Shown here: positions 130-10,098 of the stretch, piece by piece
Numbering within the stretch: position 1 is the stretch's first letter
Layout of the letters: every line of letters starts with the position of its first letter
Assembly (NCBI GenBank): GCA_002471825.1
Contig: DKQS01000011.1
Coordinates: 42,712-106,711, forward strand
DNA: 64,000 bases
Direction of reading: 5' to 3'
Source: Flavobacteriaceae bacterium UBA7302
GTDB lineage: Bacteria; Bacteroidota; Bacteroidia; Flavobacteriales; Flavobacteriaceae
Notes under the pieces: generated by a model
What the model saw: only the letters and a program-made list of their open reading frames with translations
What the model was told of the DNA's origin: nothing
The model's database searches: none
Program-made: the position numbers and the translations under genes

Positions 130-153
130 ACCAATTCAAAAAAAAGTAGTCTA
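127..153 (+). promoter_or_regulatory. Putative ECF-type promoter TAAACC-N16-GTCTA
   Basis: Resembles the AAC/GTC bipartite ECF promoter pattern and lies just upstream of the ATG at 164. Confidence 0.4.
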
Positions 154-4624: not shown

Positions 4625-4720
4625 ATGGGAGACGGATTTAATATCGTAATGATCATCGCCATCATTTTGTTTGCTCGATTGGCCATACGACTTCTTATCA
4701 ATTATAGAAAAAACAAATAA
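4625..4720 (+). CDS. Small 31-aa membrane peptide (not in ORF track)
   Basis: MGDGFNIVMIIAIILFARLAIRLLINYRKNK*; one TM helix with a basic tail; starts 2 nt after the upstream stop. Confidence 0.5.
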   Translation: MGDGFNIVMIIAIILFARLAIRLLINYRKNK

Positions 4721-4780
4721 CTTTAACATATTATTGCGTTTGTGATTGATTACATTTGTGGGTCTTTTTTGATAATTCAA

Positions 4781-5701
4781 ATGGTGGGTAAAAAGATCTT
4801 CGGAATTCTCTTCTTCTTATTGATCACGTTAAATGCACATGGTTATAAGAGAGTCCTTTACGTGGATAATTTTAGCAGTATTGTTGGCAACACCACCAGC
4901 GAAAACAAATTACTTTCCTTTGCAAAACGCTATGGCTTCAACTGCCTTCTTCTTTATGAATTAAACAAGGTGGATAAAAAGTATCCTTTAAAAGACAAAA
5001 GCACTAATGGAATTCTTGCAAAATTTATCTCCAAAGCTAAATCCACCTATAATATTGATGAAATTGGAGCCATTGGAGAAGCTTCTGAGTTTTTTATAGA
5101 TGTCATTCACCCCTATAACGAATCGAGAAACAACGTTTACGAGAAGTTCAACGTATATAACTTAGAATACGAGTATTGGTCTAAAAAGGCCTCTGGAGAG
5201 GATGGCTACTATTGCGAAAACTATTTGAAATACGACAATTATCAGTGCACCAGAGAGGGATCATTTAAGCACTTCATTGACGACTTAAAAGCCATGAAAT
5301 CTTTGGTAAGCCAAAAATCCTATAAAATTAAAATCGAGGCATTTTTAGGATGGTTTAAGGAAAATGAGATCAGAGAGATTAGCAAATACTCAGATCGCGT
5401 CATTTTGCAGAGCTATGACAAAAATCCGCGATTGTGTTATTCAAAAACCAAAAAGAGATTGAGTTTCGTTACCAGTCTCTCCTCAAAAATAGAAACCTCT
5501 GTCCTATTTTCATCAACCATGGAAAATATGGGGAAATGGCTCAAATACGATACGCTTGATAAAACCGAAAACATTTTCATGAGTGAAATGAAGGCAAAAA
5601 ATAGCGAGTTGGCCAAAAAATTAAAAATAGACAGTTTTGGTTACCATACTTATTCGTATTTAGAGAAATCATTAAGCTATTATGCCTATTCCCAGAATTA
5701 A
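4781..5701 (+). CDS. Secreted TIM-barrel / GH18-like hypothetical protein, paralog 1
   Basis: Signal peptide, LYVDNF, FNVYNLEYEYW and GYYCENYL. TACATTTG at 4751-4758 places the start at the ATG at 4781. Confidence 0.7.
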   Translation: MVGKKIFGILFFLLITLNAHGYKRVLYVDNFSSIVGNTTSENKLLSFAKRYGFNCLLLYELNKVDKKYPLKDKSTNGILAKFISKAKSTYNIDEIGAIGEASEFFIDVIHPYNESRNNVYEKFNVYNLEYEYWSKKASGEDGYYCENYLKYDNYQCTREGSFKHFIDDLKAMKSLVSQKSYKIKIEAFLGWFKENEIREISKYSDRVILQSYDKNPRLCYSKTKKRLSFVTSLSSKIETSVLFSSTMENMGKWLKYDTLDKTENIFMSEMKAKNSELAKKLKIDSFGYHTYSYLEKSLSYYAYSQN

Positions 5702-6024
5702 GTTTCAGGGTAAAATTTAATCGTTTTTTCGTCTGAGAATCACCAACTTGACGTTTTCCGGGAGTGCCAATTTTTGGCCATGCAAAAAGTAGGTTGTAAA
5801 ACCATCAAATCCTTCTAAAATTTACTTTCTAATTATCAGTTCATTACCCGTTTTTTATCCCCAAAAATGGGTATAAAAATCCCTAAAAATAGGTAGAAAA
5901 AAAGTTCACCATTTTACGGTATTGTGGGAATAGAACTTGTTTTCTAACTTAGAGTAGAGATTAAAATAAACCCCTAATCTTTTTAATAAAAACACATATT
6001 CAACAACTCCTAAAACCCCTAGTC

Positions 6025-6954
6025 ATGAAAAAGTTTTTAATTTTTATACTTATCTTATTATTAGCCATTCCATTGGTTGCTAACGATAGAAAGTTATACG
6101 TAGATAATTTCAAAAATGTTGTCGGAAACATTGAAGAAGAACACAAGCTCTTGTCATTTGCACAAACCTTAAATATCGAAGAATTGATTCTTTACGATTT
6201 AGATAAGATTCATCGTGTAAAGGACCTTACTAAAAGAAATACCAATGATGTTTTAGCCAGATTCATTAAAAAGGCAAAAACAATATACGACATGAAGCGA
6301 ATTACCGCTTCTGGTGAAAGTGCCAATTTCTTTATTGAAGTCATTCATAAATACAATAAATCTAGAACAGATTTAAGAGAACGATTTGATGTTTACAATC
6401 TAGAATTCGAATATTGGAACTCTTCCTCTACTTATGGAAACTATTATTGTGAAAATTATTTGAGAAAAAACGGTATTCCTTGTACAAAAGCCGGTGCTTT
6501 TAATTATTTCAAAGAATCGTTACTAGTATTACGATTGTTGTCCAAAGAATTGGAAAAGCCAACATTAGTACAAGCTTACATCGCCAAGTTCACCCCAGAA
6601 GAAGTGCGTAAAATTGAACCTTATGTAGATGTATTATTAGTGACTTGTTACGAAAGATCATTGACACGATTGAAATCTACAGCCATCAAAAATGTTGAGA
6701 ATTTAAGAAGATTGAAAAGCAATAATACCGAAATCTCAATTTTGATGTCAAGTGAACCAATATTTATGGGCGGATTCTTTAAGTTCAATTCATTGGCTTC
6801 AACAGAAGATAAAGTAGGAAACCATGTAAACAAACATGCAACCGTAAACGTGAACAACTTGAGTTACACTTATTACAACTACACAACATTAGCCAAGTCA
6901 TACGAGTACTTGTACTACATGAGAACAGGAAAGCGTTACGCTTACACAAAATAG
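6025..6954 (+). CDS. Secreted TIM-barrel / GH18-like hypothetical protein, paralog 2
   Basis: Signal peptide, LYVDNF, FDVYNLEFEYW, YYCENYL and SSEPIFMGG. Confidence 0.7.
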   Translation: MKKFLIFILILLLAIPLVANDRKLYVDNFKNVVGNIEEEHKLLSFAQTLNIEELILYDLDKIHRVKDLTKRNTNDVLARFIKKAKTIYDMKRITASGESANFFIEVIHKYNKSRTDLRERFDVYNLEFEYWNSSSTYGNYYCENYLRKNGIPCTKAGAFNYFKESLLVLRLLSKELEKPTLVQAYIAKFTPEEVRKIEPYVDVLLVTCYERSLTRLKSTAIKNVENLRRLKSNNTEISILMSSEPIFMGGFFKFNSLASTEDKVGNHVNKHATVNVNNLSYTYYNYTTLAKSYEYLYYMRTGKRYAYTK

Positions 6955-6976
6955 GATAATGTGTTTAAAGTGAGAT

Positions 6977-7084
6977 AAGTTGGTTTTGAATTCACTATTT
7001 GAATGAATTTAAGCAAAAGGACAGACGTAGATTAAAACCCTTATGATTGTATAAATATTGATCCCTAAAATTCAAAACCAACTT
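6977..7084 (+). repeat. Long hairpin with perfect 16-bp terminal inverted repeat
   Basis: AAGTTGGTTTTGAATT (6977-6992) and AATTCAAAACCAACTT (7069-7084). Confidence 0.8.
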
Positions 7085-7128
7085 TCTTTTTTGATCACAA
7101 AGTCAAAAAAACAACCAACAAAAAGTTA

Positions 7129-7157
7129 AAAGCTGAGTTAATTCTCAGCTTTTTTTA
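7129..7157 (+). terminator. Intrinsic terminator
   Basis: AAAAGCTGAG-ttaatt-CTCAGCTTTTTTT. Confidence 0.8.
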
Positions 7158-7440
7158 TGTCAAAAATCTGCCGTTTTTAGGAATTTTATGATTGAAAAAA
7201 CGCTGAGAATTGATCCAAAATCACCAAAAATTATATTCGAATTTGATTTTTTTTTTAATTTTTTTTGCCGCGATACCGAATTTATGAAAGCACCCCATTT
7301 TACAGGGGAAATGAAAATATTTTGAAATTGAATATTTCTCTAAAAGGCTCGCTTTTAACCCATTAAAAGGAGGCCTTATTTTTTTTATTCGTTTAATTTT
7401 CTATAATTTTGACTCGTAATTTATAATAATCCCCCTAATC

Positions 7441-8412
7441 ATGAAAAGGACAATCCCCCAGATCCTAGTCATAGCTGTTATTGTTATTTTCCAAATTCAA
7501 CAGCTGTCAGCACAACGAATTTTATACGTAGATCAATTTTATCAGATTCTCGGTGATGAAGATAAAGAAGAGAACCTATTGAATTTTACCAAAGAAAATG
7601 GGTTTGATAAGATTATACTTTACGATCTACACAAGATCAACCGAGACTTTCCTTTAGCAGATGTTCGTAAAAACGGGATTCTTGCCAATTTCATTTCAAA
7701 CGCGAAACTGAAGTACGGAATCAAAGAAGTGAGTGGCTCTGGTGAAAACGGTGAGTTTTTTATCAATGCCATCGATGCTTACAATCGTTCTAGAACCAAA
7801 GCATCAGAAAAATTTGATGCTTACAACCTCGAGTACGAGTACTGGAAGAAGGAAGACTCTTCTTACGGCGGATACTATTGCGAGAACTACCTGGATAAAT
7901 TCGGAAGAAAATGCAACCGGCAGGAATCCTTTGAGTTCTACATCAATTCATTGGCTACCATGAAAAAATTGGCCAGTCAGAACAAGCACAAGGTGAAAAT
8001 TGAAGCCTATGTGGGGAAGTTCACCAAATCTGAAGTAGCCAGAATATCAAAATATGTAGATCGCTTGCTGGTACATGTTTATGTAAATCATCCCAAAAAA
8101 GGATTTTTCTATGCCAATAAGAGATTGAAATACCTATCAGAGTTAAAGAAAAAACCCAAAGTTTCTATCATCTATTCGTCTGAAATCCTATTCATGGGAG
8201 GATGGTTTAAATATAACTCCTTGAAAAAAGCAGAGAGTATTTTTGTAAAAACCATGAAGAACGAAAACCAAAGTTTGATGAAACAGATCAACTTTACCAA
8301 TTTCACCTACTACAATTACAACTACTTGTCAAAGTCGATTGACTTCTATGCAACAGCTAGTGCTAATAGCAACCAATCTGATGACAATACTATTGTTAGT
8401 GGTTTGAAATAA
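7441..8412 (+). CDS. Secreted TIM-barrel / GH18-like hypothetical protein, paralog 3
   Basis: Signal peptide, LYVDQF, FDAYNLEYEYW, GYYCENYL and SSEILFMGG. TAATTTTG promoter element at 7404-7411. Confidence 0.7.
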   Translation: MKRTIPQILVIAVIVIFQIQQLSAQRILYVDQFYQILGDEDKEENLLNFTKENGFDKIILYDLHKINRDFPLADVRKNGILANFISNAKLKYGIKEVSGSGENGEFFINAIDAYNRSRTKASEKFDAYNLEYEYWKKEDSSYGGYYCENYLDKFGRKCNRQESFEFYINSLATMKKLASQNKHKVKIEAYVGKFTKSEVARISKYVDRLLVHVYVNHPKKGFFYANKRLKYLSELKKKPKVSIIYSSEILFMGGWFKYNSLKKAESIFVKTMKNENQSLMKQINFTNFTYYNYNYLSKSIDFYATASANSNQSDDNTIVSGLK

Positions 8413-8458
8413 AACGAATCACAAGAATTAAACTAAAGATAAAAATTAATAACAATAC

Positions 8459-8571
8459 AAAATCTACATGTTGAGGTTAATGCACATCCCCCATTTACCC
8501 TGAATTGGAAATTACAAAAACCGAGCAGTAGGTAAGCCCCTAAATTACCTATCTCCTCAACATTAGATTTT
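8459..8571 (+). ncRNA. Structured element copy 1 (candidate sRNA or 3'-UTR element)
   Basis: Ends pair (AAAATCTAcATGTTGAGG / CCTCAACATTAGATTTT). Inner 8-bp hairpin has loop GCCCCTAAA. Homologous to copy 2. Confidence 0.55.
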
Positions 8572-8688
8572 TATAAACCGTAAAAATTGAAATAAATATA
8601 GATAATACTATTTGTGTAAGAAGTAAAGCTACAAAACCCCCTAAAACAAGCTGAGTCCTTTGAGATTCTCAATATTAAAGTGACTTCC

Positions 8689-8802
8689 AAATCTAATTGT
8701 TGAGGTTAATGCGAACCCCTTTACCCTTTATTATAAATTACACAAATATTCACAGCAGTAGGTATCCCCCTAAAAAGTGCCTATCGCCTCAACATTAGAT
8801 TT
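8689..8802 (+). ncRNA. Structured element copy 2 (candidate sRNA)
   Basis: Same architecture as copy 1; inner hairpin loop CCCCCTAAAAA; stem differences are G-U compatible. Confidence 0.55.
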
Positions 8803-8862
8803 TAGTTAAAATTTTGCAAAACAGCGTGTTAGACTTTAATTTTTGGACATTTTTTCGTAATT

Positions 8863-8891
8863 TGTAACAAAACCTCCTAATCTTCAGTCTT
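8863..8891 (+). promoter_or_regulatory. Putative ECF-type promoter TGTAAC-N17-AGTCTT
   Basis: Same spacing as TGTAAC-N17-CGTCTA at 17083-17111. Confidence 0.4.
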
Positions 8892-8994
8892 TTTAATACA
8901 ACCCACCTCTAAACCAAATTTCTTGGATCGAAAGCATACAGCTTTTGTAATCACCAGAAATTAGATTTTATGTTTAACCAAAATACCATTAAAG

Positions 8995-9150
8995 ATGAAG
9001 AAATTTTTATTGCAAAAATTAGCTCAGTTAATCGATAGGCTTCCCCAAGGAGAAGAGAGAAAAGAAGCACTAAAAGATTGGTTGGAACTAAAGCTTTCCG
9101 AGGCAAACAGCTCTCTTTTAACCCTTATGAAGAATAAATATCAGTTCTAA
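8995..9150 (+). CDS. Small 51-aa hypothetical protein (not in ORF track)
   Basis: MKKFLLQKLAQLIDRLPQGEERKEALKDWLELKLSEANSSLLTLMKNKYQF*; A-rich start context; fills an otherwise empty gap. Confidence 0.65.
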   Translation: MKKFLLQKLAQLIDRLPQGEERKEALKDWLELKLSEANSSLLTLMKNKYQF

Positions 9151-9176
9151 TATAATGGATGGAAGCACCTACGACG

Positions 9177-9587
9177 TTAACCTTCGAACGAGACAAAATT
9201 ACGAGGTGTCTCGTAAAGGGTGATTTTTATATCTAAGTGGTCAGCAATAACCTTTCGGAGTTTGTTGTAGATAACCACACAAATATTCTCTGCTGTAGGA
9301 ATCAAATCCTTAAATTCTTCTACTTCCACATTCAAATTCTTGTGGTCGAAAGGTTCCTCCACCTCTTGTTTTATCAACTCCTTTAATTTTCCTAAATCAT
9401 ATACATACCCCGTTTCCTGGTCTATTTCACCAGTCAACGATACGATTAATTCGTAATTGTGCCCGTGATAATGAGGATTACTGCATTTACTGAAAACATC
9501 AAAGTTTTTGTCGTCACTCCAATCCTTTCTATAAATTCTGTGGGCCGCATTAAAATGGGCTTTTCGATGTACGGTAACTCTAGGCAT
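9177..9587 (-). CDS. 6-pyruvoyl-tetrahydropterin synthase / QueD family protein
   Basis: FNAAHR, CSNPHYHGHNY, DHKNLN, PTAENI and LYETPRN motifs. Confidence 0.9.
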   Translation of the reverse strand: MPRVTVHRKAHFNAAHRIYRKDWSDDKNFDVFSKCSNPHYHGHNYELIVSLTGEIDQETGYVYDLGKLKELIKQEVEEPFDHKNLNVEVEEFKDLIPTAENICVVIYNKLRKVIADHLDIKITLYETPRNFVSFEG

Positions 9588-10098
9588 TTTTCAGTTTTTC
9601 AAAGGATTTCTCAAAAATTATTTTAAACCAAGCTGTATATAAATGCGGATTCGTGCGAATATCGTTTTTAACCGCATCTAAGGTCATCCAACGAAAATCT
9701 TCTACTTCTTCCCTATTGATAATAGGATCTCCATTATAATGACCCACCATTACATGATCCAATTCATGTTCAGTTAAACCATTGTCGAAAGGAGCTTTGT
9801 AAATAAAGGAAAATACTTCCTTAATCTCCGTAGTGAACCCCATTTCCTCTTGGAGTCTTCTTTTTCCAGCTTCAATATTGCTTTCACCAGCTCGTTGGTG
9901 GGAGCAGCAAGTATTTGTCCATAATAAAGGCGAATGATACTTGTGCTTCGCACGTTGTTGCAACATCAACTCTTTTTGGTCATTGAAAATAAAAACAGAA
10001 AAAGCGCGGTGCAATTCGGCCTTTTCATGCGCCTCCATTTTAGGCATCAATCCCCTTGGGTTGTCGTTTTGATCTACTAAAATTACTTGTTCTTCCAC
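9580..10098 (-). CDS. idi: Isopentenyl-diphosphate delta-isomerase type 1
   Basis: LHRAFSVF, LLQQRA-like, WTNTCCSH and EHELDHV motifs. Confidence 0.95.
   Translation of the reverse strand: MEEQVILVDQNDNPRGLMPKMEAHEKAELHRAFSVFIFNDQKELMLQQRAKHKYHSPLLWTNTCCSHQRAGESNIEAGKRRLQEEMGFTTEIKEVFSFIYKAPFDNGLTEHELDHVMVGHYNGDPIINREEVEDFRWMTLDAVKNDIRTNPHLYTAWFKIIFEKSFEKLKNA

What the first reader, a model, noticed from the sequence alone, without database searches (positions are those of the whole stretch)
8459..8802. Two copies of an unannotated ~113-nt structured RNA-like element with CCCCUAAA hairpin loops
Seen in sequence: copies at 8459-8571 and 8689-8802 share identical blocks TGTTGAGGTTAATGC, TTTACCC, AAATTACA, AGCAGTAGGTA and CCTCAACATTAGATTTT, with divergent linkers. 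In each copy the two ends pair over ~16 bp with one bulge. An inner 8-bp hairpin displays a C-rich loop (GCCCCUAAA or CCCCCUAAAAA), and a second C-rich tract lies in the open 5' arm. The inner-stem differences between copies (A-U to U-G, U-A to U-G) keep pairing only if G-U wobble is allowed, which points to selection on RNA rather than on a DNA palindrome. An alternative helix UUAAUGC/GCAGUAG competes with the inner hairpin, so the element could switch. Inference: these are tandem sRNAs or 3'-UTR elements acting as protein sponges, by analogy with CsrB/RsmZ GGA loops but using a C-rich motif. Model Bacteroides lack Hfq, ProQ and CsrA, so the binding partner would be something else.
Basis: partly seen in the sequence, partly recalled or inferred. 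Interest (0 to 1): 0.82.

Follow-up and report, generated by a model that had tools for sequence, protein, structure and literature searches.

The report
Polaribacter tandem structured RNA element
Two tandem copies of a ~115-nt three-helix RNA-like element, confined to one lineage of marine Polaribacter and apparently descended from a duplicated piece of the neighbouring queD-like gene, lie just after a secreted TIM-barrel gene; the fold is real and conserved, but its job (most likely an elaborate transcript-end structure) is unproven and the proposed "protein sponge" role has no evidence.

Summary
Copies lie at 8459-8571 and 8688-8803 (+) and share the stated blocks. Each folds into a long basal stem (P1), a 3-bp P2 and a 7-bp hairpin (P3) with a CCCCUA loop.

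There is no Rfam match. No other copy was found in the window, in about 112 kb of related loci, or in the plasmid and viral collections. It is not a MITE.

Homologues occur only at the same locus in related Polaribacter, in 1-3 tandem copies. They always lie after a TIM-barrel gene and before a 51-aa gene. Two relatives lack both the element and the small gene.

Eight copies show 94.9% pairing, and 9 pairs changed on both sides. G-U pairs (11 cells, against 2 A-C) and a consistent 3' U-tract favour the + strand.

The centre of copy 2 resembles the adjacent PTPS/QueD-like coding sequence. This points to origin by partial duplication, not maintained antisense pairing.

The only RNA data are oligo(dT)-primed metatranscriptome contigs. 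They show minus-strand read-through and say nothing about the + strand.

Best reading (0.4): an elaborate terminator-type 3'-end domain of the upstream mRNA. The sRNA or sponge role is untested.

The parts
8459..8571 (+). Element copy 1. P1 = 8459-8466 and 8468-8476 paired with 8555-8563 and 8564-8571, bulged C at 8467. P2 = 8481-8483 with 8525-8527. P3 = 8529-8535 with 8545-8551, loop GCCCCUAAA 8536-8544. The U-run continues to 8572.
8572..8687 (+). Spacer, which acts as the leader of the copy-2-type unit. It is conserved in L001 and partly in L019. It holds TATTTGTGTAA (8609-8619, perfectly complementary to 8738-8748 inside copy 2), AAAACCCCCTAAAAC (8633-8647) and the small hairpin TGAG...CTCA (8652-8671). 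Its start (8601-8612) resembles the end of the upstream gene (8383-8394), so the duplicated unit included the gene tail.
   Evidence: (I13, D11)
8688..8803 (+). Element copy 2. P1 = 8688-8695 and 8697-8705 paired with 8787-8795 and 8796-8803. P2 = 8710-8712 with 8755-8757. P3 = 8759-8765 with 8777-8783 (two G-U pairs), loop CCCCCUAAAAA 8766-8776.
8727..8765 (+). PTPS-like core of copy 2: TTTATTATAAATTACACAAATATTCACAGCAGTAGGTAT.
   Evidence: Local alignment score is 18-22 against the PTPS segment of five of the six lineages tested (15 for L020, which 4 null windows reach). The null over 2786 windows of the 64 kb has mean 8.4, sd 1.4, maximum 16. It is the best match of copy 2 anywhere else in the window.
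9261..9303 (+). Source-like segment inside the PTPS/QueD-family gene, which is coding on the minus strand. It is collinear with the element core. The wider 9222-9342 aligns weakly to the whole element.
   Evidence: D4; CM E = 0.09
7441..8412 (+). Upstream gene: 323-aa secreted (beta/alpha)8 TIM-barrel protein of a Polaribacter-only family with no Pfam or NCBIfam match. The element always follows its stop codon by about 46-105 nt.
8995..9150 (+). Conserved 51-aa gene downstream. Its presence goes with the element: both in 5 of 5 lineages where both positions can be read, neither in 2 of 2.
9177..10098 (-). Convergent operon: PTPS/QueD-family gene (9177-9587) and isopentenyl-diphosphate delta-isomerase (9580-10098). 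Minus-strand read-through from here crosses both copies.
7247..7266 (+). T10-AA-T8 run. It is the only run of at least 16 of 18 A or T in the first 21 kb. As an A-run on minus-strand RNA it is the oligo(dT) priming site that produces the RNA-depth peak over 7247-8682.

Best explanation
A lineage-specific structured RNA domain that works in cis on the + strand, as the 3'-end structure of the upstream TIM-barrel gene's transcript.

Proposed mechanism: a 17-bp closing helix with an A-tract on its 5' side and a U-tract on its 3' side uses the same A-tract/stem/U-tract layout as this genome's ordinary intrinsic terminators. It would stop or pause RNA polymerase and block 3'-to-5' exonucleases. That would insulate the downstream 51-aa gene and the convergent idi-PTPS operon. 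It would also leave a stable ~115-nt 3' fragment whose conserved single-stranded blocks and CCCCUA loop are free for some further interaction.

The element arose from a partial direct duplication of a ~120-nt piece of the adjacent PTPS/QueD-like gene. It then acquired complementary arms and has since been duplicated in tandem (1-3 copies).

Shown: the fold, its conservation and covariation, its fixed position and orientation, its restriction to one locus, the U-tract asymmetry, and the similarity to PTPS.

Inferred: + strand transcription, and any termination or stabilising activity.
For: Structure:
- Across 8 distinct copies from 4 lineages, 94.9% of cells are paired.
- 9 of 27 pairs changed on both sides: 5 of 7 in P3, 3 in P1, 1 in P2.
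- With the 3' partners slid by 1-3 columns, pairing falls to 33-47% and at most 2 pairs show double changes.
- In the shuffle control, 0 of 500 shuffles reach the observed percentage paired or covariation score.
- The P3 register is fixed by invariant flanks (CAG|7 nt|loop|7 nt|TCT), so the four double changes between W1 and L012 are not an alignment artefact.

Strand:
- 11 G-U cells against 2 A-C cells.
- 94.9% of cells pair on the + strand against 90.7% on the minus strand.
- Fold z-scores are better on the + strand in 5 of 8 copies.
- Every copy has UAGA followed by a U-rich tail on the + strand (UUUUUAU, UUUUAGUU, UUUGUUUU, UUUUUUUG). The minus-strand tails of copy-2 types are poor (UAGAUUUGGAAG, UAGAUUUAGAAG).

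Position:
- The element always lies 46-105 nt after the stop codon of the co-oriented TIM-barrel gene and 145-197 nt before the co-oriented small gene. This holds even in L012, where another paralogue separates it from PTPS.
- There is no other terminator-like site between 8412 and 8995 on the + strand.
- Ordinary terminators in the window have the same A-tract/stem/U-tract form, for example 7130-7158 and 1160-1188.
- Minus-strand RNA reads through the copies, which fits a one-directional device.

Not mobile and not a known family.
Against: - No + strand transcript or 3' end has been seen. The RNA data are unstranded contigs from oligo(dT)-primed libraries, and their signature points to minus-strand RNA.
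- The stem base next to the U-tract is A/U-rich, and the hairpin encloses about 85 nt. Both are unfavourable for a canonical intrinsic terminator.
- A plain terminator or stabiliser does not explain about 40 nt of conserved unpaired sequence (UUAAUG, UUACCC, AAAUUACA, CAGUAG, CCCCUA) or an invariant basal helix.
- Relatives lacking the element (L014, L021) manage without it.
- The covariation rests on few independent lineages and partly on a model-fitted alignment.
Confidence: 0.4

Rival explanations
1. Trans-acting RNA. Discrete ~115-nt RNAs, made on their own or processed from the 3' UTR, use the C-rich loops and tracts to titrate an RNA-binding protein or a G-rich RNA, or to pair with G-rich targets.
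For: - The loop CCCCUA is kept in 7 of 8 copies while the stem beneath it covaries.
- Single-stranded blocks are conserved.
- The same word, CCCCUAA(U/G)C, sits directly before the start codon of the upstream gene and its orthologues. This holds even in relatives without the element. It is also found in the leader of the small gene.
- C-runs before start codons are rare here: 4 of 49 genes.
- Paired 5' and 3' ends are typical of stable processed ncRNAs.
Against: - No discrete RNA has been observed.
- No consensus -7 box (TAnnTTTG) lies upstream of either copy on the + strand.
- The 5'-arm C tract is lost in L019 and the loop has decayed in L013.
- There are only 1-3 sites per genome, few for a sponge.
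- No partner is known, and the RbpB paper consulted reports no C-rich motif.
- CCCCTAA is not enriched in the window overall: 7 found against 5.5 expected.
Confidence: 0.2
2. The functional strand is the minus strand. The element is part of the long 3' read-through of the idi-PTPS operon. It would be a PTPS-fragment-derived 3'-UTR structure, or the structured part of an antisense RNA against the TIM-barrel gene, with G-rich UUAGGGG loops.
For: - This is the only strand with expression evidence. cDNA contigs begin with 20-31 T joined to 7268, where the genome has T10AAT8. First-strand cDNA therefore had + sense and the template was minus-strand RNA.
- Contigs run 7247-8600 (X6) and 7268-9831 (X2), the latter ending inside idi.
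- The element is in the same sense as the PTPS mRNA on the minus strand.
- The minus strand also folds (z -1.6 to -3.3), and better than the + strand in L012 and L013.
- A perfect TAGATTTG -7-type box faces left on the minus strand at 8695-8688.
Against: - G-U against A-C (11 to 2) and the U-tract asymmetry favour the + strand.
- The position relative to PTPS is not conserved: L012 has a 0.9-kb paralogue in between. The position relative to the + strand genes is conserved.
- The depth peak is explained by one exceptional priming site, so the minus-strand RNA may be a minor read-through product.
- A full-length antisense RNA needs no loop seeds.
Confidence: 0.15
3. A decaying tandem duplication of a gene fragment, or a relic palindromic repeat. 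It would have no RNA function, or only a DNA-level one such as outward-facing promoter-like TAGATTT(G/T) boxes in the arms.
For: - Sequence ancestry in the PTPS coding sequence.
- Copy number differs between co-occurring strains: 2 against 3 in the same Tara sample.
- Very narrow distribution.
- The basal 8 bp of P1 never vary, and the arm ends resemble the Bacteroidota -7 box.
- L023 carries only a 3' fragment.
Against: - Compensatory changes in three helices, including four in one 7-bp stem, mean that pairing is under selection.
- The element is retained at about 65-70% identity where the flanking intergenic DNA is no longer alignable, between lineages whose neighbouring protein is 79% identical.
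- There are no target-site duplications and no dispersed copies.
Confidence: 0.13
4. A 5' cis-regulatory leader (riboswitch- or attenuator-like, in tandem) that controls read-through into the 51-aa gene.
For: - The element and the small gene are gained or lost together: both in 5 of 5 lineages, neither in 2 of 2.
- Same orientation, 145-197 nt apart.
- A three-way junction with conserved unpaired bases, followed by stem plus U-tract, looks like an aptamer with a terminator.
- Tandem copies are known for riboswitches.
Against: - A conserved promoter-like box (ATCGTAT.TT) and a conserved leader lie between the element and the small gene.
- X6 contigs cover 8933-9279 but not 8601-8932.
- A 17-bp P1 is far longer than usual riboswitch P1 stems.
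- No alternative antiterminator pairing is evident.
- No Rfam similarity.
Confidence: 0.07

Closest known systems
Rho-independent terminators and 3' mRNA stabilisers (E. coli REP/BIME hairpins, the B. thuringiensis cry 'positive retroregulator'). Comparison from general knowledge.
   Same: Lies directly 3' of a gene. Has a long stem flanked by an A-tract and a U-tract. Can occur in tandem. Is expected to end or protect the upstream transcript.
   Different: The stem encloses an ~85-nt three-way junction with conserved unpaired sequence. The stem base is A/U-rich. It occurs at one locus, not genome-wide like REP. Activity is untested.
sRNAs derived from mRNA 3' ends (the class reviewed in PMC9438474, listed but not read here; the comparison is from general knowledge).
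   Same: Position in a 3' UTR. A terminal stem plus U-tail. Conserved single-stranded segments that could serve as seeds.
   Different: No evidence of a processed species or of targets. The closing stem pairs the 5' and 3' ends, whereas these sRNAs usually have a free 5' seed followed by a terminator hairpin.
CsrB/RsmZ-type protein sponges, and C-rich-loop sRNAs such as RsaE/RoxS (general knowledge).
   Same: A short motif repeated in hairpin loops and single-stranded tracts. Several units in tandem.
   Different: The motif is CCCCUA, not GGA. Only 2-5 motif copies per locus. No sequence or structure match in Rfam.
MITEs and other palindromic repeat elements.
   Same: 17-bp terminal inverted repeats with invariant termini. 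About 115 nt long. Non-coding.
   Different: No target-site duplication. No dispersed copies. The interior is conserved and covaries. It is always at the same syntenic site.
Y RNAs / bacterial YrlA (general knowledge).
   Same: About 100 nt. The 5' and 3' ends form a long stem with a bulged base. A pyrimidine-rich internal region.
   Different: No Rfam Y_RNA or YrlA match. The bulge is not conserved (C, A or absent). No tRNA-like domain was seen. Linkage to an rsr gene was not examined.

Membership tests
Any Rfam 15 family (including Flavo-1, Bacteroidota motifs, Y_RNA, riboswitches, ribozymes) | Covariance-model score at or above the gathering threshold | tested here: not met
   No match in the whole window at gathering thresholds. 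At E up to 10 on 8350-9000, the only matches are three chance-level ones (DISC2, BMV3 pseudoknot, HrrF) far below their thresholds.
MITE | Terminal inverted repeats | tested here: met
   AAAATCTA.ATGTTGAGG / CCTCAACAT.TAGATTTT, 17 bp.
MITE | Target-site duplications flanking each copy | tested here: not met
   Flanks are ...ACAATAC|el|TATAAAC and ...GACTTC|el|AGTTAAA. No direct repeat is present.
MITE / REP | Many dispersed copies per genome in unrelated contexts | tested here: not met
   - Only the tandem copies are found in 64 kb with the full CM and filters off, and none elsewhere in about 112 kb of related loci.
- The exact-pattern scan of 185,579 species genomes gave one true locus, which is syntenic.
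- The JGI metagenome scan gave only chance hits.
- Plasmids gave no match, and the viral hits were chance.
- Caveat: the collection scans needed exact blocks, so diverged copies would be missed.
Intrinsic (Rho-independent) terminator | Stable stem immediately followed by a U-tract on the transcribed strand | tested here: inconclusive
   A 17-bp stem followed by U4-U7 is present in all 9 copies on the + strand. However, the stem base is A/U-rich and the 'loop' is an 85-nt junction. The simple scanner (loops 3-8) cannot call it.
Intrinsic (Rho-independent) terminator | Transcript 3' ends map to the U-tract | not testable with these tools
   Only unstranded contigs from oligo(dT)-primed libraries are available. 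No poly(A)-ended contig lies at 8572 or 8803.
CsrB/RsmZ-like protein sponge | Many repeats of the partner's binding motif in loops, and a cognate RNA-binding protein | not testable with these tools
   One CCCCUA loop per copy, plus one in the spacer. No partner is known. The 5'-arm C tract is not conserved.
3'-UTR-derived sRNA | A discrete stable RNA sharing the mRNA's terminator | not testable with these tools
   No small-RNA or stranded data could be found: only 4 RNA runs (X2, X5, X6 and X20) were listed, all contigs only.
Structured RNA under selection (generic) | Compensatory base changes that preserve helices | tested here: met
   9 pairs with changes on both sides and 94.9% pairing. 0 of 500 shuffles reach the covariation score. 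Slid controls give at most 2 such pairs. Limits: few lineages, and a model-fitted alignment.
Integron attC site | R'' (RYYYAAC) at the 5' end and R' (GTTRRRY) at the 3' end, next to cassette ORFs and an integrase | tested here: not met
   The order is reversed (GTTGAGG ... CCTCAAC) on either strand. Copies follow one another with no ORF between them.
cis/trans antisense RNA to the PTPS/QueD-like gene | Complementarity to the target maintained within each lineage | tested here: not met
   Copy 2 matches the PTPS segments of five of six lineages (scores 18-22; L020 scores 15). But the L019 element scores only 10 against its own PTPS, and W1, L012 and L013 are at background. This is shared ancestry, not co-evolving pairing.

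The most novel reading that the evidence does not exclude
The element is the decoy arm of a small post-transcriptional circuit in a bacterium that lacks Hfq and CsrA. An unknown factor, a protein or a G-rich RNA, recognises CCCCUAAUC placed directly before the AUG of the secreted TIM-barrel paralogues and in the leader of the 51-aa gene. The 3' element presents the same word in hairpin loops and tunes that factor's availability. The co-inherited 51-aa basic helical protein is a candidate partner. If so, this would also be a documented case of a regulatory RNA born from a duplicated coding fragment of a neighbouring gene.
Probability: 0.1. Interest if true: 0.75.

Novelty: new variant of a known kind. 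Interest (0 to 1): 0.4.

Why it matters
If the fold works as proposed, it is a clear example of how a structured 3'-end RNA domain can arise. A ~120-nt fragment of a neighbouring coding gene is duplicated, gains complementary arms, and is then amplified in tandem, all within one genus.

Post-transcriptional control in Bacteroidota is poorly charted. A conserved C-rich loop that matches the word in front of the upstream gene's start codon gives a concrete, testable handle.

The element is nevertheless confined to one locus in a narrow, uncultured Polaribacter lineage, so its general importance is limited unless the decoy reading holds.

A practical lesson: depth peaks in these marine metatranscriptomes can be oligo(dT) priming artefacts and can report the opposite strand.

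Tried and rejected
- **Known RNA family:** rejected.
- **MITE, REP or phage/plasmid element:** rejected. There are no dispersed copies and no target-site duplication.
- **'3' UTR of a very highly expressed mRNA whose transcript ends at about 8600':**
  - I first concluded this from contig depths and then withdrew it.
  - The contig break at 8682 is also present in a DNA run, so it is a graph branch caused by strain and copy-number variants.
  - The left edge at 7247 is an oligo(dT) priming site on minus-strand RNA.
  - Depth in these libraries therefore does not measure expression.
- **Small peptide inside the element:** rejected. Reading frames are not conserved because of indels in the C-run (read).
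- **attC site:** rejected. The core sites are in the wrong order.
- **Maintained antisense pairing with PTPS mRNA:** rejected.
- **B2 (UUUACCC) pairing with the P3 5' strand, or with GGUUAA:** not conserved across lineages.
- **nhmmer profile of all eight copies against PTPS:** not significant. Only the copy-2 type keeps the similarity.
- **RbpB motif:** the paper consulted reports none.
- **Literature searches for Polaribacter or Flavobacteriia sRNAs:** nothing relevant.

Full report
**1. Observation**

The window shows two copies, at 8459-8571 and 8688-8803 on the + strand.

No third copy exists in the 64 kb, either by block searches or by a covariance model run with filters off.

Each copy folds with its ends paired over 17 bp and one bulged base. 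Inside is a 7-bp hairpin presenting GCCCCUAAA or CCCCCUAAAAA. The + strand fold has z = -4.4 and -4.5 against dinucleotide shuffles.

**2. Context**

- The window has about 37% G+C.
- Upstream lies a 323-aa + strand ORF (7441-8412). It has a signal peptide and no Pfam or NCBIfam family.
- Its homologues are all Polaribacter or unnamed marine sequences, and it is the last of three tandem paralogues.
- AlphaFold2 gives a confident (beta/alpha)8 barrel (pLDDT 92.6). PDB neighbours are only generic TIM barrels (SfnG/SsuD, Cwp19), at TM about 0.5.
- Downstream lies a 51-aa ORF (8995-9150, +). Substitutions between lineages fall mostly at third codon positions, for example 27-30 at the third against 2-4 at the second. 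It is therefore a real gene.
- Next is a convergent operon: a PTPS/QueD-family gene and isopentenyl-diphosphate isomerase.

**3. Relatives**

An exact-pattern scan of one genome per species found a single true locus, in a Polaribacter MAG (L001). It is syntenic and carries three copies with a period of about 232 nt. The JGI metagenome scan returned only chance matches in coding DNA.

I then followed the flanking proteins to their contigs:

| Locus | Relation | Element |
|---|---|---|
| L012, L013 | upstream protein 79% identical | one diverged copy each |
| L019 | reached through the small gene | one copy of the copy-2 type, with its conserved leader |
| L014, L021 | upstream protein 62-66% identical | neither element nor small gene; the TIM-barrel gene abuts PTPS |
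| L023 | small-gene contig | only a 3' fragment |

Contigs of the window's own strain have two copies. A three-copy strain co-occurs in the same Tara sample.

A model built from six copies recovers L012 and L013 at E = 1e-8 and 2e-7. It finds nothing else in about 112 kb of held sequence. Plasmid and viral collections give nothing real.

The element is therefore locus-specific, confined to one lineage and variable in copy number. It is not a MITE or a REP.

**4. Structure**

On the eight distinct copies the three-helix model is 94.9% paired. Nine of 27 pairs changed on both sides: 5 of 7 in P3, 3 in P1, and the closing pair of P2 (C-G to U-A). Sliding the 3' partners by 1-3 columns drops pairing to 33-47% and leaves at most 2 such pairs. 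No shuffle out of 500 reaches the covariation score.

The alignment was fitted to the model. However, the P3 register is pinned by invariant flanks. W1 reads CAG|UAGGUAA|...|UUACCUA|UCU and L012 reads CAG|UAGUGGU|...|ACUACUA|UCU, with four double changes that all preserve pairing.

The unpaired blocks UUAAUG, UU(U)ACCC, AAAUUACA and CAGUAG are conserved, as is the loop CCCCUA. The loop is CCCACUA in L013. The 5'-arm C tract is absent in L019. The basal 8 bp of P1 never vary.

**5. Strand**

- G-U cells outnumber A-C cells 11 to 2.
- Canonical pairing is 94.9% on the + strand and 90.7% on the minus strand.
- Fold z-scores are better on the + strand in 5 of 8 copies.
- Read directly from the sequences, every copy has a U-rich tail after UAGA on the + strand. 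The minus-strand tails of copy-2 types are poor.
- Position and orientation relative to the + strand genes are constant. This holds even in L012, where another paralogue separates the element from PTPS.

Together these points favour a + strand RNA, though not decisively.

**6. Transcription: a correction**

Metatranscriptome contigs cover 7247-8600 (X6), 7553-8682 at depth 440 followed by 59 (X5), and 7268-9831 (X2). I first read this as a very abundant mRNA ending just after copy 1. That reading does not hold, for three reasons.

1. A DNA run breaks at the same 8682. This is an assembly-graph branch caused by strain variants.
2. Three independent transcript contigs begin with 20-31 T joined to GCCGCG at 7268. 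The genome there has T10-AA-T8. This is the mark of anchored oligo(dT) priming. It means the template was minus-strand RNA. A control contig over + strand genes (183-1142) carries its poly(A) on the right, as expected.
3. That T-run is the only run of at least 16 of 18 A or T in the first 21 kb. This explains the depth peak.

The data therefore show minus-strand read-through from the idi-PTPS operon across both copies and into the antisense of the TIM-barrel gene. They say nothing about the + strand. No poly(A)-ended contigs mark the element ends. No other RNA runs hold the region.

**7. Origin**

The full CM gives a weak hit inside PTPS (9222-9339, E = 0.09).

The core of copy 2 (8727-8765) matches 9261-9303 at 23 of 27 positions. 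This is the best match of copy 2 anywhere in the window on either strand, and it exceeds all 2000 shuffles.

Against the homologous PTPS segment in the six lineages tested it scores 18-22 in five (15 in L020, which 4 null windows reach). The null has mean 8.4, sd 1.4 and maximum 16. Against L012's PTPS it matches 33 of 39 positions with a single 3-nt gap.

The 3' arm also resembles the PTPS sequence CCTCCACATTCAAATTTT. The PTPS sequence already contains a proto-hairpin at the P3 position, as read.

The L019 element does not track its own PTPS (score 10), and the other element types are at background. The relation is therefore ancestry by partial direct duplication, not maintained antisense complementarity. 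A profile of all eight copies does not reach significance against PTPS.

**8. Mechanism**

*Best reading (0.4).* A cis-acting + strand 3'-end domain of the upstream mRNA. It is a terminator-type or exonuclease-blocking closing helix, built on the same A-tract/stem/U-tract layout as the window's ordinary terminators (7130-7158 and 1160-1188). It encloses a conserved junction whose extra role is unknown. Tandem copies would act as back-up.

*Points against.* + strand transcription is unproven. The stem base is A/U-rich. The enclosed junction is large. Conserved unpaired sequence is not needed for termination.

*Rivals.*
- Trans-acting sRNA or sponge (0.2).
- Minus-strand function (0.15).
- Decaying duplicate or DNA-level element with promoter-like TAGATTT(G/T) arm ends (0.13).
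- Leader of the small gene (0.07).

**9. A lead, not a finding**

CCCCTAA occurs 7 times in the window, always on the + strand, and 5 of these fall within 5971-8773. CCCCUAA(U/G)C sits directly before the AUG of the TIM-barrel gene in the window and its nearest relatives (L012, L013, L016). Shorter C-rich variants hold that place in more distant orthologues, including those without the element. It also lies in the conserved leader of the small gene.

C-runs before start codons are otherwise rare: 4 of 49 genes. Overall motif frequency is not above chance, and no partner is known.

**10. Verdict**

This is a real, previously undescribed structured element with good but small-sample covariation, a narrow distribution and an interesting origin. 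Its function is unproven. Novelty: new variant of a known kind. Interest: 0.4.

Noticed in passing
window 7247-7266; contigs L034, L035, L036: Metatranscriptome contigs start with 20-31 T where the genome has T10AAT8. The libraries are oligo(dT)-primed. The depth peak over 7247-8682 therefore reflects internal priming on minus-strand RNA, not high expression of the + strand gene.
   Followed up: yes
window 7247-9831 (minus strand): The idi-PTPS operon appears to read through for at least 1.9 kb. It crosses the small gene and both element copies and runs antisense through the whole TIM-barrel gene. This may be convergent-transcription or antisense regulation.
   Followed up: partly
window 4742-5701, 6025-6954, 7441-8412: Three tandem paralogues (38-45% identical) of a Polaribacter-restricted secreted (beta/alpha)8 TIM-barrel family with no Pfam or NCBIfam model. 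A few distant members carry a T9SS Por_Secre_tail domain. The fold resembles Cwp19/GH-like and SsuD-like barrels only generically.
   Followed up: partly
window 8995-9150: A 51-aa basic helical protein gene (MKKFLLQKLAQLIDRLPQGEERKEALKDWLEL...) under purifying selection. Only six sequence clusters were found, all in the same Polaribacter sub-lineage. It is always found together with the element. It has its own conserved promoter-like box and leader.
   Followed up: partly
window 7431-7440; 5971-5977 and 6015-6024; L012, L013, L014, L022 upstream regions: CCCCUAA(U/G)C lies immediately before the start codon of the TIM-barrel orthologues and of paralogue 2. This is unusual for this A/T-rich, Shine-Dalgarno-poor genome. 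It is the same word as in the element's loops.
   Followed up: partly
window 8609-8619 and 8738-8748; L019 ~155-166 and ~273-287: The spacer sequence UAUUUGUGUAA is perfectly complementary to the single-stranded region inside copy 2, which would form a pseudoknot across P1. L019 keeps the pairing with different flanking bases: GGAAUUGUGUAA against UUACACAA(CCA)UUCC.
   Followed up: partly
window 8688-8695 (minus strand); L012 ~4715-4722, L013 ~6172-6179, L023 ~138-145 (+ strand): The outer ends of the P1 arms read TAGATTTG or TAGATTTT, a perfect or 7-of-8 match to the Bacteroidota -7 promoter box TAnnTTTG, and they face outward on both sides. This may explain why the basal helix never varies.
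   Followed up: no
L017 vs L029 (same Tara sample ERZ2783005); window ~8682: Strains with two and three copies co-occur. The repeat causes contig breaks at about 8682 in both DNA and RNA assemblies.
   Followed up: yes
L023 1-150: A 513-nt contig joins a glycosyltransferase-like gene fragment directly to the last ~30 nt of an L012-type element, followed by the small gene. This is either a rearrangement that truncated the element or an assembly chimera.
   Followed up: no
window 5971-5995 and 8872-8900: The leader of paralogue 2 (CCCCTAATCTTTTTAATAAAAAC) and the leader of the small gene (CTCCTAATCTTCAGTCTTTTTAATACAAC) are alike. The small gene's promoter and leader may derive from a paralogue's 5' region.
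   Followed up: no
window 7404-7411: A conserved TAnnTTTG box lies about 30 nt upstream of the TIM-barrel gene's ATG in W, L012, L013 and L014. This implies a short leader of about 20-25 nt, not the ~195-nt leader suggested by the contig edge.
   Followed up: partly
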